Shown here piece after piece: positions 16,054-20,374 of a stretch of 64,000 nucleotides of DNA. Positions within the stretch are counted from its first letter, which is position 1, and the number at the start of each line of letters is the position of its first letter. This DNA is from an uncultured Acidobacteriaceae bacterium (GTDB lineage: Bacteria; Acidobacteriota; Terriglobia; Terriglobales; Acidobacteriaceae), in the NCBI GenBank assembly GCA_963831665.1, contig CAWHRG010000009.1:25534-89533 (forward strand). The letters run 5' to 3'. The translations under genes and the position numbers were made by a program. Under the pieces are notes generated by a model. The model was not told the origin of the DNA. It made no database searches and saw only the letters and a list, made by a program, of their open reading frames with translations.

Positions 16054-16605
16054 ATGTTGCTAAGGTTGAATTCAGAGGTGCTCGCCATGATGCGTGCATT
16101 GAACTATGAAGTGATTCCAGTGCACGAGGTGCCCTGGAACGAGTCGATAAGCTTCCCTGAGCAGCGTGAACCAGTCGTGCTGGTGGTAGATGATGAGCAC
16201 GTTATCGCTGATACTCTGTCGAAGATTCTTTCGATGAGCGGCTACAAGGTCCTAACTGCCTATAACGGCAGGAGCGCGCTTGAGCTCGTACGCTCCTCTC
16301 CTCCGGCGCTTCTTATTACGGACGTGGTCATGCCTGGGATGACCGGAATTGAATTGGCAATCACGTTGGTGAAAGCTATTCCGGACTGCAAGGTCCTGTT
16401 GTTTTCTGGTCAGGCCGCAACGGCGGATATGCTCACGACGGCGCGGGATATGGGATACGACTTCTCACTGCTCGCGAAACCAGTACACCCGACTGATATG
16501 CTCCGACGCGTCAGGGAGAGTTTCGAGGTTCAAGAGATGGCTGCCACGTTTAACGCGTCGGCGGAGACAATATTTCACCCCGGTTCATCCGACTTTGTTT
16601 CTTAA
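16054..16605 (+). CDS. Receiver-only response regulator
   Basis: VLVVDDEHVIADTL, ITDVVMPGMTG, LLAKPVHP; start codon uncertain. Confidence 0.85.
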   Translation: MLLRLNSEVLAMMRALNYEVIPVHEVPWNESISFPEQREPVVLVVDDEHVIADTLSKILSMSGYKVLTAYNGRSALELVRSSPPALLITDVVMPGMTGIELAITLVKAIPDCKVLLFSGQAATADMLTTARDMGYDFSLLAKPVHPTDMLRRVRESFEVQEMAATFNASAETIFHPGSSDFVS

Positions 16606-18346
16606 TCATTCTCCGGGGGCGAGATGACCTGCGCCAACGGGTGGGGCGTCGCGCTCGACTGGTTCGATGATGGCTCCGGCTAGTTGGGCGCGGAGGGTGT
16701 CGTCATCGGTGCGATCGAAGTAGTGGCGGAGGTCTTCGCCGGGGGTGCGGACGGCGAGATAGCCGGTGAGAAGGCGCTCGATGGCGTCGGGGACCTCGGT
16801 GGCAGCGACGCGGTAGCCGAGAGGACGTGCGGGGCGAGCGTATTTGCCGACGGAGCCGCCGACGCAGAAGAAGAAGGCGTCGACTAGCTGGCCGTCTTTC
16901 TTGATCTTTTTGCCCTCGAGGCCGATGTCGGCGATCCAGTGCTGGCCGCAGGAGTTGGTGCAGCCGGTGACGTGGAGGCGAATCTGCTGGTCGAAGCCGG
17001 GGAGGCGGTCTTCGAGCTCATTGATGAGCCATTTGTTGAAGCCCTTGGTCTCGGCGATGGCGAGCTTGCAGAACTCGGTGCCGGTGCAGGCGATGGCGCC
17101 GCGCCAGAAGGCCGAGACGTCGACCTGCAGGCCGAGGGTGTTGAGCTCGATAACGAGGGCGGCAGTCTCGCGGTCAGGGACGTTGACGATGAGAATATTC
17201 TGGCCGATGGTGGCGCGGAGCTGGCCGTTGCCGTACTTGTCGGCGAGATCGGCCAGAGCGATGAGCTGATCGCCGGAGAGGCGTCCGTTGAGCACGGAGG
17301 CTCCGACGGAGGAGAGGCCGGGCTGACGCTGCTGGGTGATGCCTACGTGGTCGCGGTAGATGTCGGCAGGGACGACGTCGGCGGAGAGCGGGTTGGGATC
17401 GAGCTTGTAGCCGAGCTTTTCTTCGAGAGCGGCGAGGAAGGACTCCGGAGTCCAGCCGTGGCGCATGAAGAGGTACTTGATGCGGGCGCGGGTGCGGTTC
17501 TCGCGAAGTTCGGACTGCTCCTTAAAGATGCGGACGACGGCAGTGACGACTTCGAGGGCCTTGTCCTGCGGGATGAAGGCGGGGATGCGTTCGGCGATGT
17601 GAGGTTCGGTGGAAAGGCCGCCGCCGACGCGGAGGGTGTAGCCGATCTCTTCGGTGACGTTGCCATCGTTTCCGATGACAGACCGTTTGATGGCGGTGAG
17701 GGCTACGTCGTTGATCTCCGGGTAGGTGCACCAGACGGGGCAGCCGGTGACGGAGATCTTGAACTTGCGGGGTAGGTTGTAGAACTCGGGGTTTGCGGTG
17801 AGGTGATGCGCGATCTCGACGGCGAGAGGGCTGGAGTCGATGAGCTCGGTGTGGTCGAGGCCGGCGAGGGGGCAGCCGGTGACATTGCGTACGACGTCGC
17901 CGCAGGCTCCCTTGGGGCTGAGGCCCACGGCGGTGAGGGCGTCTACGACCTCGACGAGGCCGGAGAGGGTGAGCCAGTGGAGCTGGATGTTCTGGCGGGT
18001 GGTGATGTCAGCGAGATTGCGGGCGTACTTCTGAGTAAGCTGGCCGATGACACGGGTCTGCTCACTGGTGAGGATGCCGTTGGGCAGTCCGATACGCATC
18101 ATGAAGAACTCTGTGGCTTTGCCTTCGCCATTTGCGCCACCGGTGACGCCGAGGCCGTCGCCCTGGGTGTAGACGCCCCACCACTTGAAATACAGGCCGG
18201 TCCACTCGGGCAGGACTGAGTCCCGGCCGTGGCGGGCGAACTCACGCACTTCGTCCCACGCTTCCCAGGGATTTTTGGCGAGCTTGAAGTCGCTCGGACT
18301 TCTGGGCCTTGGTTTCTTTGGGGAGGGCTGCGGGCTGAGTGGACAT
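16606..18346 (-). CDS. Ferredoxin-type sulfite/nitrite reductase (SirA/CysI-like), +1 frameshift near 18287
   Basis: GACGDVVRNV, NLPRKFKI, ACTGTEFC and VTGCTNSCGQ siroheme/4Fe-4S motifs. The N-terminus MSTQPAAL (SD AAAGGA) lies in the adjacent frame. Confidence 0.9.
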
Positions 18347-18376
18347 TGGATGATCCTTTGAATTGGCCTGAAATAG

Positions 18377-18402
18377 AAAAAGCCCACACTGTGTAGGTGG
18401 GC
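18377..18402 (-). terminator. Intrinsic terminator / attenuator in the 5' leader of the sulfite reductase gene
   Basis: Minus strand GCCCAC-CTACACAGT-GTGGGC-TTTTT, about 30 nt upstream of the ATG. Confidence 0.7.
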
Positions 18403-18441
18403 GCTGTGTAGCTTTGCGGGTAGGTTCGGACTTGAAAAAGT

Positions 18442-18525
18442 CTACGAATCGAGGCAAAGGCGACGGCGCACGAGGTCGCAACAACAGATACACATGCGAC
18501 AAGCGGTCGTGCGGTAATTCGCCAT
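18442..18525 (-). CDS. Cys-rich leader peptide MANYRTTACRMCICCCDLVRRRLCLDS (not in ORF track)
   Basis: ATG at 18525, TAG at 18442; 6 Cys in 27 aa including a C-I-C-C-C run; upstream of the terminator and the sulfur-assimilation gene. Confidence 0.75.
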   Translation of the reverse strand: MANYRTTACRMCICCCDLVRRRLCLDS

Positions 18526-18533
18526 TGTCTTAA

Positions 18534-18562
18534 AGGCTATCTGGGTTGAGGGCTGACGTCAA
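18534..18562 (-). promoter_or_regulatory. Sigma70-type promoter for the leader
   Basis: TTGACG (18562-18557) - N17 - TAGCCT (18539-18534), 8 nt before the uORF ATG. Confidence 0.6.
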
Positions 18563-18709: not shown

Positions 18710-20374
18710 ATGGTGCTTGAGCAGCTTCCAAACCACGACCAAATCTGGGACCTTTGCATTGTTGGATCTGGACCCGTGGGCATATCTCTCGCGCTGGAGT
18801 TCGAGCGGCTAGGGCGCGACGTTCTTGTGCTGGAGTCCGGCGGAAGCGAAGTCGATCCGAAGAGAGCGGAAGACAGTCATGCGACGATTGTTGACCCGCG
18901 GCATCACGCTCCCATGGAATTAACTGTCCGTCGTGCCCTTGGTGGCACGTCGTGGCTCTGGGGAGGACGGTGTGTCCCCTATAACGCCATGGATTTTACG
19001 AAGCGTGACTTTGTTCCCGAGTCGGATTGGCCGATTCGCCACGAAGATATCGAACCCTGGTACAAAGCGGCGTGCGAGTACATGCTGTGTGTCGACGACA
19101 GCTTTCAGATGCCGTTCAGCCGCGAAATCAATGACGATCTGATCCTGGACGGTGTCGAGCGATGGTCTACTGAATGCCACTTAATGCGGGTTCACCGCAA
19201 ACGCCTGGAGAAGTCGGAAAGAATCAAAATCTGTCTGAACAGTACGGTGATTGATCTGGACTTAGGTGAGGATGGGCGGTGCGTTGAGAGCGCCGTTGTC
19301 GCAACTCCAAGTGGCAAGGTCAGAGTTAAGGCGCGGTGCATAATCCTCGCAACCGGAGGAGTGGAGGCGACGCGCCTTCTGTTGACTGTGCAACGATGCT
19401 GGCCGGATCACTTTGGGGGAACGGGTGGTCCACTCGGGCGTTATTACATGGGTCATCTCGGCGGCGCGATCTCCAGCCTGGTCTTCGATGATCCTCGTAG
19501 CAGCGCTGCATTCGATTGGGTGCTCGACGCAAACGGAGTCTATTACAGGCGGCGATTTATGCTGCCGGCGAAGGTTCAACTGGAAAACAAAGTTCTGAAT
19601 TCCGGATTCTGGCTCGACAATGCTCAGTTTTTTGATCCCAGGCACGGCAGTGGAATTCTTTCTGCATTTTTTTTGGCCTTGGCTGTCCCTGCCATCGGGA
19701 GGCGGATACGGTCGGAAGAAGTCCGGCTTGTCGAGGTCGGGCCAAGGCCGTATCCAGTCGGTGCGCACTTGATCAATACCGTGCGGGATGCGCCAGGCAC
19801 TGCGAGAGACGCGTATATGGCCCTTCGCGATCGCGTTTTCAAGAAACCCAGGAAGCCTGGCTTTACCTTCCTCAACCGGGGCGGCAGATTTATCCTGCGC
19901 TACCATTCGGAGCAGGTACCGAATCCCGAGAGCCGGATTGTTTTGACGGACGAAGTGGACCGGCACGGTCTCCCTCGTGTGTCGATTGATTTCCGGTTCA
20001 GCAACCAGGATACCCGTAGCGTCGTCGACTCTCATCGCCTGCTGGATACAGCTCTTCAAAACAATAAGATTGGACATCTGGAGTTTTGGTATCCGCCGGA
20101 ACAATTACAGGACCGCGTGATGGAACAGGCGACGGACGGCCATCATCAGATGGGTGTCACAAGGATGGGAGACGATCCCAGGGAGAGCGTCGTCGATTCA
20201 AATCTGAAGGTGCACGGAGTGGACAATTTGTACGTAGTTTCCGCGGGTGTCTATCGAACAGGCAGTCAGGCGAACTCGACTTTGCTTGCAGTTGCACTTG
20301 GCATGCGGCTTGCCGGCCATCTCAACTGCACCTCGGGGAATCTCGATCAGGTTACGATATCCAGTCAGACTTAG
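18710..20374 (+). CDS. GMC-family FAD-dependent oxidoreductase
   Basis: IVGSGPVG Rossmann motif, ALGGTSWLWGG, HHQMGVTRMG, VHGVDNLYV, ANSTL. Confidence 0.88.
   Translation: MVLEQLPNHDQIWDLCIVGSGPVGISLALEFERLGRDVLVLESGGSEVDPKRAEDSHATIVDPRHHAPMELTVRRALGGTSWLWGGRCVPYNAMDFTKRDFVPESDWPIRHEDIEPWYKAACEYMLCVDDSFQMPFSREINDDLILDGVERWSTECHLMRVHRKRLEKSERIKICLNSTVIDLDLGEDGRCVESAVVATPSGKVRVKARCIILATGGVEATRLLLTVQRCWPDHFGGTGGPLGRYYMGHLGGAISSLVFDDPRSSAAFDWVLDANGVYYRRRFMLPAKVQLENKVLNSGFWLDNAQFFDPRHGSGILSAFFLALAVPAIGRRIRSEEVRLVEVGPRPYPVGAHLINTVRDAPGTARDAYMALRDRVFKKPRKPGFTFLNRGGRFILRYHSEQVPNPESRIVLTDEVDRHGLPRVSIDFRFSNQDTRSVVDSHRLLDTALQNNKIGHLEFWYPPEQLQDRVMEQATDGHHQMGVTRMGDDPRESVVDSNLKVHGVDNLYVVSAGVYRTGSQANSTLLAVALGMRLAGHLNCTSGNLDQVTISSQT

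What the first reader, a model, noticed from the sequence alone, without database searches (positions are those of the whole stretch)
18346..18562. Candidate cysteine-sensing attenuator: leaderless poly-Cys uORF plus terminator upstream of the sulfite reductase
Seen: a TTGACG-N17-TAGCCT promoter with ATG 8 nt later and no SD; the uORF MANYRTTACRMCICCCDLVRRRLCLDS (6 Cys, 18525-18442); a GC hairpin with U-run (18402-18377); then the reductase ATG. The leader sequence UGUGUA in the Met-Cys-Ile codons is complementary to two UACACA copies, one just before and one inside the terminator, which offers alternative pairing. Established: ribosome stalling on runs of the cognate amino acid drives attenuation, and poly-Cys leaderless uORFs control cys genes in mycobacteria. 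Inference: the same logic with an intrinsic terminator in Acidobacteria, which I am not aware of being described.
Basis: partly seen in the sequence, partly recalled or inferred. Interest (0 to 1): 0.88.

Follow-up and report, generated by a model that had tools for sequence, protein, structure and literature searches.

The report
Cysteine-sensing leader before sulfite reductase
A tiny reading frame rich in cysteine codons, followed by a switchable transcription stop signal, sits in front of the sulfite reductase gene of this soil acidobacterium (Edaphobacter) and about 90 relatives. It most likely turns the gene on only when charged cysteine-tRNA runs short, which is the textbook trp-style attenuator applied to cysteine in a phylum where I found no description of it.

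Summary
One caveat: the reductase ATG (18346) is out of frame in the window because of one extra base near 18286. Short-read contigs from two soil metagenomes lack that base.

The element is conserved. About 90 distinct orthologous leaders in Acidobacteriaceae share five features:
- a TTGAC-N17-TAnnnT promoter;
- a start codon 6-8 nt after it, with no Shine-Dalgarno;
- a 10-34-codon ORF with usually 4-8 Cys;
- a nearly invariant TGTTGT;
- a GCCCAC/GTGGGC hairpin plus U-run 23-87 nt (mostly 28-45) after the stop.

A second family of the same order and one distant family have non-homologous versions of the same layout. In the same genome, similar poly-Cys leaders precede cysD, two YeiH-type transporter loci and a peroxiredoxin-tRNA-Cys unit.

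Folding and pair counts support a 1:2 / 2:3 / 3:4 design. The antiterminator covers only 3 of the 6 nt of the terminator 5' arm.

Best explanation: a leaderless leader-peptide transcription attenuator that senses Cys-tRNA. It has no experimental or RNA-level support yet. Cys-codon attenuators are known in mycobacteria (translational) and predicted before cysS in Rhodobacterales, so this is a new member of a known kind.

The parts
18557..18562 (-). -35 hexamer TTGACG
   Evidence: TTGAC[G] occurs in 87 of 87 scored leaders, with a 17-nt spacer in 81 of 87.
18534..18539 (-). -10 hexamer TAGCCT (TAnnnT)
   Evidence: The start codon lies 6-8 nt downstream in 85 of 87 leaders, and an SD-like motif occurs in only 2 of 87. 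This geometry implies a leaderless or near-leaderless mRNA; that is an inference.
18442..18525 (-). Leader ORF MANYRTTACRMCICCCDLVRRRLCLDS* (27 codons, 6 Cys)
   Evidence: A Cys-rich ORF sits at the same position in about 90 distinct leaders.
18478..18501 (-). Control codons: Cys9 (18501-18499), Cys12 (18492-18490), Cys14-16 UGUUGUUGC (18486-18478). This is the proposed stall zone.
   Evidence: TGTTGT is present in 82 of 86 aligned leaders. TGT makes up 61% of leader Cys codons against 27% in genome ORFs.
18467..18513 (-). Segment 1:2 hairpin (anti-antiterminator). CGCACGA 18513-18507 and GUCGCA 18500-18495 pair with UGCGAC 18480-18475 and UCGUGCG 18473-18467. The Cys codons lie in the loop.
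   Evidence: MFE of the free leader. In 68 of 86 leaders the GYGCGC block pairs upstream in the free-RNA fold.
18454..18471 (-). Segment 2: GUGCGCCGUCGCCUUUGC, the 5' strand of the antiterminator
   Evidence: Stalled-state fold; pair counts on 86 leaders.
18425..18448 (-). Apical hairpin around the leader stop codon UAG (18444-18442)
   Evidence: Folds. The region from the stall site to the terminator arm is more structured than shuffles (z -2.6).
18399..18417 (-). Segment 3: GCAAAG..ACAGCGCCC, the 3' strand of the antiterminator. It overlaps terminator bases G18402, C18401 and C18399.
   Evidence: 72.5% of cells paired against 28-56% when slid, with compensatory C-G to U-A changes in the CUUUGC:GCAAAG helix.
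18371..18402 (-). Intrinsic terminator: GCCCAC (18402-18397), 9-nt loop, GUGGGC (18387-18382), UUUUUCUAUUU (18381-18371)
   Evidence: It is conserved in nearly all leaders. The stem base covaries G-C to A-U in 10 sequences, and C-G to U-A in 3.
18354..18359 (-). Shine-Dalgarno AAAGGA of the reductase gene
   Evidence: It is conserved in relatives and does not pair with the leader ORF.
16606..18346 (-). NirA/Sir-type sulfite (or nitrite) reductase gene. ATG 18346 is the likely true start. One extra base near 18286 breaks the frame in the window.
   Evidence: Pfam NIR_SIR plus NIR_SIR_ferr; NCBIfam NirA family, below cut-off; frameshift.

Best explanation
This is a leader-peptide (ribosome-mediated) transcription attenuator that reads the supply of charged tRNA-Cys and gates transcription of the sulfite reductase gene.

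Proposed mechanism:
1. A sigma-70-type promoter starts the RNA at or within 1-2 nt of the AUG at 18525, so a ribosome loads on a leaderless message.
2. With ample Cys-tRNA, the ribosome runs through the six Cys codons to UAG (18444-18442). It occupies or unwinds segment 2 (18471-18454). Segment 3 stays free, the GCCCAC/GUGGGC hairpin plus U-run forms, and RNA polymerase stops near 18375.
3. With scarce Cys-tRNA, the ribosome stalls in 18501-18478. This breaks the 1:2 hairpin but leaves segment 2 free. Segment 2 pairs with segment 3 (CUUUGC:GCAAAG plus GUGCGCC:GCGCCC), which takes the bottom bases of the terminator stem, and polymerase reads on into the reductase gene.
4. With no translation at all, 1:2 and 3:4 both form and transcription terminates.

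What is shown: the conservation of all parts, their order and their spacing. What is inferred from folding, pair counts and analogy with the trp/his attenuators: the transcription start, the translation of the leader, the stalling, and the switch itself.
For: - Cys enrichment: 6 of 27 codons, against 0.9% genome-wide.
- Recurrence: the same architecture occurs in 76 of 78 named Acidobacteriaceae loci and gives 90 distinct leaders. Cys counts are mostly 4-8, and the stop-to-terminator distance is mostly 28-45 nt.
- Promoter geometry: -35/-10 with a 17-nt spacer in 81 of 87, a start codon 6-8 nt after the -10 in 85 of 87, and an SD-like motif in 2 of 87.
- Control codons: TGTTGT is present in 82 of 86 leaders although TGC is the preferred codon (73%) and both tRNA-Cys genes carry anticodon GCA.
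- Terminator: it is the only consensus helix found by RNAalifold, and it shows compensatory changes.
- Pre-terminator structure: MFE -23.1 against -16.3 kcal/mol for shuffles, z -2.6.
- Antiterminator projected from the window: 72.5% of cells paired against 28-56% when slid; covariation 0.146 against 0.112 +/- 0.008 in shuffles, reached by 0 of 500 shuffles.
- Free-RNA folds: the terminator forms in 82 of 86, and segment 2 is sequestered upstream in 68 of 86.
- Independent versions: family f2 has unrelated sequences in which 11 of 13-14 nt of the terminator 5' arm pair with the end of the leader ORF in the stalled state. Other genera and a distant family also have a Cys leader plus terminator.
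- Same genome: poly-Cys leaders precede cysD (conserved in relatives), two YeiH-type loci, and prx-tRNA-Cys (conserved in 11 of the 14 relatives with the prx gene).
- No Rfam family matches the leader.
Against: - There is no RNA-level or experimental evidence. No RNA-seq of this organism or of a cultured close relative was found.
- The antiterminator overlaps only 3 of the 6 nt of the terminator 5' arm in the window, and typically 2-5 nt in family f1.
- A simple duplex test between the leader-ORF 3' part and the arm is no better than shuffles (z -0.4).
- At equilibrium the terminator always wins, so the switch must be kinetic.
- The P1' pairs are conserved but hardly covary. The pair statistics come from related sequences and from a structure derived from one of them.
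- The consensus promoter scan does not call TAGCCT as a -10.
- A few relatives have 0-2 Cys codons or no leader at all (L010, L013, L018, L021).
Confidence: 0.78

Rival explanations
1. Translational attenuation as in mycobacteria. The poly-Cys leaderless ORF would control reductase translation by masking or unmasking its Shine-Dalgarno. The hairpin would be only a structural element or a weak pause site.
For: The only experimentally proven poly-Cys leaderless sORF (M. smegmatis Ms5788A) works this way (10.1101/834739). The cysD leader of this genome has no obvious intrinsic terminator.
Against: The hairpin carries a conserved U-run in nearly all leaders. The reductase SD (18359-18354) lies downstream of it and pairs only in a weak local 4-bp hairpin, not with the leader ORF.
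Confidence: 0.08
2. The short ORF encodes a functional Cys-rich micropeptide, for example a metal-, redox- or sulfur-handling peptide. It would be co-transcribed with the reductase, and the hairpin would be a partial terminator that sets the stoichiometry.
For: The C-terminal half (DRVRRRLC[LP]) is fairly conserved within the genus.
Against: - Conservation is at the nucleotide level: TGTTGT is invariant at the third codon positions, and GYGCGC and CTTTGC have complementary non-coding partners.
- Unrelated peptides that share only Cys runs precede the orthologue in other families, and precede other sulfur genes.
- Length and the remaining sequence vary freely.
Confidence: 0.05
3. The leader is a protein- or metabolite-controlled terminator (a riboswitch or an RNA-binding regulator), and the Cys codons are a by-product of the sequence requirements of the RNA structure.
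For: The region upstream of the terminator is strongly structured, and several conserved blocks lie outside the Cys codons.
Against: - No Rfam family matches.
- The conserved start codon sits at a fixed distance from the -10.
- The frame stays open with Cys runs in sequence-unrelated versions.
- The link to Cys/sulfur genes and to tRNA-Cys itself points to codon reading.
Confidence: 0.05
4. Chance ORF plus an ordinary terminator, with no regulatory role.
For: The terminator scan finds 2 sites in this 1.4-kb stretch against 1.2 expected, so the hairpin alone is not significant.
Against: Conservation in about 90 distinct leaders and in several families. The upstream gene is divergent, so the terminator serves no preceding gene.
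Confidence: 0.02

Closest known systems
Classical leader-peptide transcription attenuators of amino-acid operons (E. coli/Salmonella trpL, hisL, leuL, thrL, pheL, ilv leaders)
   Same: A short leader ORF enriched in codons of the end-product amino acid. An intrinsic terminator before the first structural gene. Alternative 1:2, 2:3 and 3:4 pairings, with the outcome set by where the ribosome sits. Use of a less-preferred synonymous control codon also has a precedent in the leu leader (from my own knowledge, not checked here).
   Different: The amino acid sensed is cysteine. The leader ORF appears to start at the 5' end of the mRNA without a Shine-Dalgarno. The antiterminator covers only the bottom half of a short (6-7 bp) terminator stem. 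The phylum is Acidobacteriota. There is no sequence homology.
Polycysteine leaderless short ORFs of mycobacteria (Ms5788A and the 'Cys ribulon'; Canestrari et al. 2020, 10.1101/834739; predicted earlier in Actinobacteria by Seliverstov et al. 2005, PMC1262725)
   Same: Leaderless start, runs of Cys codons, position before sulfur/cysteine genes, and several loci per genome sharing the device, which gives a regulon run by the ribosome.
   Different: The studied mycobacterial case masks the Shine-Dalgarno (translational control). The 2005 survey explicitly found no terminators. Here a canonical hairpin plus U-run is conserved and the SD is not paired with the leader. The origins are independent.
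uORFC-8-2 motif upstream of cysS in Rhodobacterales (Brewer et al. 2021, PMC8632094)
   Same: A predicted ribosome-mediated attenuator with two tandem Cys codons and an intrinsic terminator. It is bioinformatic only.
   Different: It precedes cysteinyl-tRNA synthetase, not sulfur-assimilation genes. UGC dominates there, whereas UGU-UGU is nearly invariant here. No leaderless start is described. The sequences are unrelated and the phylum is different.

Membership tests
Classical leader-peptide transcription attenuator | Short ORF in the 5' leader enriched in codons of the regulating amino acid | tested here: met
   6 Cys in 27 codons against 0.9% genome-wide. The feature is conserved in about 90 leaders.
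Classical leader-peptide transcription attenuator | Intrinsic terminator (GC hairpin plus U-run) between the leader ORF and the structural gene | tested here: met
   Terminator at 18402-18371. It is conserved with compensatory changes.
Classical leader-peptide transcription attenuator | Antiterminator mutually exclusive with the terminator, freed by a ribosome stalled at the control codons and blocked by a ribosome at the stop codon | tested here: inconclusive
   The 2:3 helix is conserved (72.5% paired; 0 of 500 shuffles reach its covariation score) and the region is structured (z -2.6). However, it overlaps only 3 of 6 arm nucleotides in the window, and the simple duplex test gives z -0.4. 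The overlap is clear in family f2.
Classical leader-peptide transcription attenuator | Anti-antiterminator (1:2) that includes the control-codon region | tested here: met
   In free-RNA folds segment 2 pairs upstream in 68 of 86 leaders. In the window the Cys codons lie in the loop of this hairpin.
Classical leader-peptide transcription attenuator | Controlled genes belong to the pathway of the sensed amino acid | tested here: met
   NirA/Sir-type reductase. Sister leaders precede cysD and YeiH-type putative sulfate-family transporters.
Classical leader-peptide transcription attenuator | Termination and read-through respond to charged tRNA of that amino acid | not testable with these tools
   No RNA-seq or Term-seq of this organism or of cultured relatives was found.
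Mycobacterial polycysteine leaderless sORF attenuators | Leaderless start (transcription start at the AUG/GUG) | tested here: inconclusive
   The conserved -10 to start distance of 6-8 nt and the lack of an SD argue for it. No transcription start has been mapped.
Mycobacterial polycysteine leaderless sORF attenuators | At least two consecutive Cys codons | tested here: met
   CCC at codons 14-16.
Mycobacterial polycysteine leaderless sORF attenuators | sORF RNA pairs with and masks the Shine-Dalgarno of the downstream gene | tested here: not met
   The SD at 18359-18354 pairs only in a local 4-bp hairpin, not with the leader ORF. This is a resemblance in logic, not membership.
Known riboswitch or RNA leader families (Rfam 15) | Match to a covariance model | tested here: not met
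   Only two chance-level hits (E 5.7 and 9.7), both outside the leader.

The most novel reading that the evidence does not exclude
Acidobacteriaceae may run a genome-wide 'cysteine ribulon'. In this reading, leaderless poly-Cys leader ORFs, mostly coupled to intrinsic terminators, jointly gate sulfite reductase, cysDN, YeiH-type transporters, and a 1-Cys peroxiredoxin together with an extra tRNA-Cys gene. The near-invariant wobble-read UGU-UGU pair would act as a tuned sensor. The sensor would then feed back on the very tRNA it reads, and would tie sulfur assimilation to antioxidant defence without any protein regulator.
Probability: 0.5. Interest if true: 0.65.

Novelty: new member of a known kind. 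Interest (0 to 1): 0.5.

Why it matters
Gene regulation in Acidobacteria, one of the most abundant soil phyla, is almost unstudied, and an earlier survey noted that its predicted attenuators have no assigned function (PMC2965389). If confirmed, this would add cysteine in Acidobacteria to the amino acids thought to be sensed by trp-style termination control, so far only predicted for cysS in Rhodobacteria. It would also show that leaderless loading and intrinsic termination can be combined. Further, it would define a ribosome-run sulfur regulon that can be read directly from genomes, which helps in annotating unannotated small ORFs and in predicting sulfur-responsive genes such as the YeiH-type transporters. 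Several cultured strains carry the element (Edaphobacter modestus DSM 18101, E. aggregans DSM 19364, Granulicella aggregans, Tunturibacter species), so it is directly testable.

Tried and rejected
- **Rfam scan of the leader at E up to 10:** nothing relevant.
- **Consensus sigma-70 scan:** it calls no promoter, because TAGCCT matches only 3 of 6 positions of TATAAT. I accept the promoter on conservation instead.
- **Equilibrium folds with a masked ribosome footprint:** the terminator always remains, so equilibrium folding cannot show the switch. I used truncated-transcript folds instead.
- **Direct duplex energy between the leader-ORF 3' part and the terminator arm, against shuffles:** not significant (z -0.4).
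- **RNAalifold on 86 leaders:** it returns only the terminator.
absent from all folds and not conserved in L031, L038 or L039. Rejected as the conserved switch.
- **Pairing of the Cys codons UUGUUG with CAGCAA, overlapping the GCAAAG block:** possible in 58 of 85 leaders at 5 or more of 6 pairs. Both sides are invariant, so there is no test. In the window (CCGCAA) it is weaker. Left as speculation.
- **Search for RNA-seq of this organism and of strain TAA 166:** only metatranscriptomes with 5-8% word share. Laying them gave fragments from relatives and no informative ends.
- **Loose genome-wide scan for CC-containing short ORFs:** it produced mostly noise, including a family of repeat-borne Cys-rich frames. 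Only the candidates next to sulfur/redox genes were kept.
- **GTG 18387 as the reductase start:** rejected. It lies inside the terminator stem, has no SD, and relatives start at the ATG.
Full report
**1. Observation**

On the minus strand the window reads TTGACG (18562-18557), 17 nt, TAGCCT (18539-18534), 8 nt, then ATG (18525). No Shine-Dalgarno precedes the ATG. The ORF at 18525-18442 encodes MANYRTTACRMCICCCDLVRRRLCLDS*. It is followed by GCCCAC-9 nt-GTGGGC and TTTTTCTATTT (18402-18371). The terminator scan also reports this hairpin.

UGUGUA (18494-18489) and two UACACA copies (18410-18405, 18395-18390) exist. A good SD (AAAGGA, 18359-18354) and ATG (18346) follow.

The downstream protein has the NIR_SIR and NIR_SIR_ferr domains. 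Its best NCBIfam match is the NirA family, below cut-off. It is therefore a ferredoxin-type sulfite/nitrite reductase. The sulfite assignment rests on the context described below.

The gene upstream is divergent (a GMC oxidoreductase, 18710-20374). The gene downstream is convergent (a response regulator, 16054-16605). The reductase is thus monocistronic, and the hairpin terminates no other gene.

**2. A frame problem**

ATG 18346 is not in frame with the long reductase ORF (16606-18387). Its own frame stops at 18242. Relatives read MST..KETKAQKSERLKLAKNPWEAWDEV in one frame. The window has one extra base in CGACTT[C]AAG.

Contigs of two soil-metagenome runs lack one base at 18286. One of them is otherwise identical to the window over 232 nt. 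The frameshift is therefore most likely an assembly error or a minor variant, and ATG 18346 is the real start. The GTG at 18387 lies inside the terminator stem and is not credible as a start.

**3. Organism and conservation**

The closest named relatives are Edaphobacter species: 95% identity to a MAG, 90% to E. modestus DSM 18101 and 89% to E. aggregans.

- Of 78 named Acidobacteriaceae loci with enough upstream sequence, 76 carry a Cys-containing short ORF at the same place, and nearly all carry the promoter motif.
- The 30 loci from unnamed relatives show the same.
- After removing duplicates there are 90 distinct leaders. Cys counts are mostly 4-8 and ORF lengths 10-34 codons.
- A hairpin plus U-run lies 23-87 nt (mostly 28-45) after the stop.
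- Across 87 leaders, the -35 is TTGAC[G], the spacer is 17 nt in 81, the -10 is TAnnnT, and the start codon lies 6-8 nt after it in 85. An SD-like motif occurs in only 2.

That geometry puts the transcription start at or next to the AUG, giving a leaderless message. This is an inference, because no start site has been mapped.

A MAFFT alignment of 86 leaders shows nearly invariant blocks: ATG, TGTTGT, GYGCGC, CTTTGC, GCAAAG, and GCGCCCAC..GTGGGC plus a T-run.

TGTTGT occurs in 82 of 86 leaders. TGT is 61% of all leader Cys codons. In long ORFs of the genome TGC is preferred 73:27. Both tRNA-Cys genes carry anticodon GCA, so the control codons are the wobble-read ones. This would make them slower and more sensitive. 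That is my reading of the codon bias, with a precedent in the leu leader recalled from memory.

**4. Independent versions**

In a second family of the same order the orthologue is preceded by unrelated leaders, such as MCCCPFLAGRCVS, MACCCCGQGLPV, MACCCRCRHSLPA and MTFACTACCCRP... They have TATAAT-like -10 boxes 6-8 nt before the ATG and their own terminators. In two of them (L029, L030) 11 of 13-14 nt of the terminator 5' arm pair with the end of the leader ORF in the stalled state. In L029 none pair with it when a ribosome sits on the stop codon; in L030 that fold still pairs 11.

Other genera of Acidobacteriaceae and one distant family of the phylum also show a Cys leader plus terminator (L136-L138, L146). 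Several other families show none in the region fetched.

**5. The switch in the window**

- Free leader: folds into a 1:2 hairpin. CGCACGA/GUCGCA (18513-18495) pairs with UGCGAC/UCGUGCG (18480-18467), with the Cys codons in the loop. The terminator also forms.
- Stalled ribosome: with the footprint masked at the first UGU of UGUUGUUGC and the 3' arm not yet made, segment 2 (GUGCGCCGUCGCCUUUGC, 18471-18454) pairs with segment 3 (GCAAAG..ACAGCGCCC, 18417-18399). They enclose an apical hairpin that holds the stop codon. The fold has -18.4 kcal/mol, against -10.9 for the terminator. It takes G18402, C18401 and C18399, half of the terminator's 5' arm, at the base of the stem.

**6. The switch across the family**

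- The stall-site-to-arm region is more stable than dinucleotide shuffles: -23.1 against -16.3 kcal/mol, mean z -2.6. It engages 40% of the arm against 33% in shuffles.
- Projected on the 86-leader alignment, the 2:3 helix is paired in 72.5% of cells, against 28-56% when the partner is slid by 1-3 columns. Its covariation score is 0.146 against 0.112 +/- 0.008 in shuffles, reached by 0 of 500 shuffles. There are C-G to U-A and U-A to C-G exchanges in the CUUUGC:GCAAAG part. The GYGCGC:GCGCC part is conserved but does not covary.
- In free-RNA folds the terminator forms in 82 of 86 leaders, and segment 2 is held by upstream leader sequence in 68 of 86.

Weak points:
- The simple duplex test is not significant.
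- The terminator always wins at equilibrium.
- RNAalifold sees only the terminator.
- The statistics come from related sequences, with a structure taken from one of them.

It is also not conserved: L031 reads UGUGCA, and the second UACACA is missing in L031, L038 and L039.

**7. A regulon in the same genome**

A scan of the whole assembly found further promoter-proximal poly-Cys ORFs.

| Leader ORF | Position | Downstream |
|---|---|---|
| MGLMHIAACSCCLCCIGNCCCCVGSSLT | C1:31869 | terminator, a 41-codon ORF, a YeiH-family putative sulfate-family transporter, then a TonB-type outer-membrane protein |
| MTVSRQLAPLHLMSTRCCCR | C1:878180 | a YeiH paralogue |
| MMFSIERACCCWRNTLRRCPR | C1:180954 | cysD; Cys-rich leaders also precede cysD in relatives |
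| MTMTPNTNAPLCCCCCSRARVRG | C1:623818 | terminator, a 1-Cys-type peroxiredoxin, then tRNA-Cys(GCA) 46 nt after it on the same strand |

The leader-prx-tRNA-Cys order holds in 11 of the 14 relatives with the prx gene. A weaker candidate precedes a TlpA/ResA-like thioredoxin.

Different peptides sharing only Cys runs, placed before sulfur, cysteine and tRNA-Cys genes, argue that the codons are what is read, not the peptides.

**8. Comparison with what is known**

- Poly-Cys leaderless sORFs in M. smegmatis are proven cysteine-responsive attenuators. The studied case works by masking the Shine-Dalgarno (10.1101/834739).
- The 2005 Actinobacteria survey found Cys leader peptides explicitly without terminators (PMC1262725).
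- A Cys-codon uORF with an intrinsic terminator was predicted upstream of cysS in Rhodobacterales, with UGC dominant (PMC8632094).
- I found no paper describing such leaders in Acidobacteria or before sulfite reductase.

In the window the reductase SD is not paired with the leader ORF, so the mycobacterial mechanism is not the best fit. The element works like a trp/his-type attenuator with a leaderless start.

Earlier notes of this scan report the same device in other Acidobacteria and other phyla. They agree with my reading, but they are not independent evidence.

**9. Verdict**

My confidence is about 0.78 that this is a Cys-tRNA-sensing leader-peptide transcription attenuator, and about 0.5 for the exact antiterminator. 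It is a new member of a known kind and is of moderate interest. The interest rises if the regulon, including tRNA-Cys feedback, is confirmed.

Noticed in passing
window 18284-18290 (minus strand, reductase codons 19-21): One extra base (CGACTT[C]AAG) frameshifts the reductase gene in the window. Two metagenome runs have contigs without it, and relatives are in frame. It is probably an assembly error or a strain variant.
   Followed up: yes
genome C1:623818-624807 (+), locus L147: The poly-Cys leader MTMTPNTNAPLCCCCCSRARVRG plus a terminator precedes a 1-Cys-type peroxiredoxin gene. tRNA-Cys(GCA) follows 46 nt later on the same strand. The order is conserved in 11 of the 14 relatives with the prx gene. 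This may be feedback of the sensor on its own tRNA.
   Followed up: partly
genome C1:180954 (-), locus L113: The leader MMFSIERACCCWRNTLRRCPR sits directly after a TATACT box and precedes cysD. Cys-rich leaders also precede cysD in relatives. No clear intrinsic terminator is present here.
   Followed up: partly
genome C1:31869 (+), locus L111; genome C1:878180 (+): Two paralogous loci have the layout: poly-Cys leader (9 and 3 Cys), a small membrane-like ORF, then a YeiH-family (PF03601) putative sulfate-family transporter. The first also has a strong terminator and a TonB-type outer-membrane protein gene. The transporters may carry a sulfur compound.
   Followed up: partly
alignment A1 columns 58-63 (window 18486-18481): The tandem Cys codons are TGT-TGT in 82 of 86 leaders, although the genome prefers TGC 73:27 and both tRNA-Cys genes carry anticodon GCA. 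This suggests selection for wobble-read control codons, or for an RNA pairing such as UUGUUG with CAGCAA that could not be tested.
   Followed up: partly
genome C2:1027897 (-), locus L112: MLTHFTLCCCRRSPLAHPETRSSR follows a TTGAC-N17-TAATCT promoter and precedes a secreted TlpA/ResA-like thioredoxin-fold protein. Only a weak hairpin overlaps the stop codon. It may be a further member or a chance hit.
   Followed up: no
genome C1:341415, C4:491726, C4:606247, C2:805198 and others: A dispersed repeat family (…GTCATCCTGACCCTGAGCGAAGTCGA-ATGGGGAAGGATCCCTGTATTTG…) creates spurious Cys-rich frames (MGKDPCIC…). These are unrelated to the attenuators and would contaminate any naive poly-Cys ORF scan.
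   Followed up: no
loci L010, L013, L018, L021: A few relatives have lost the leader altogether (L010) or keep the promoter and terminator with 0-2 Cys codons (L013, L018, L021). These are natural variants that could serve as controls.
   Followed up: no
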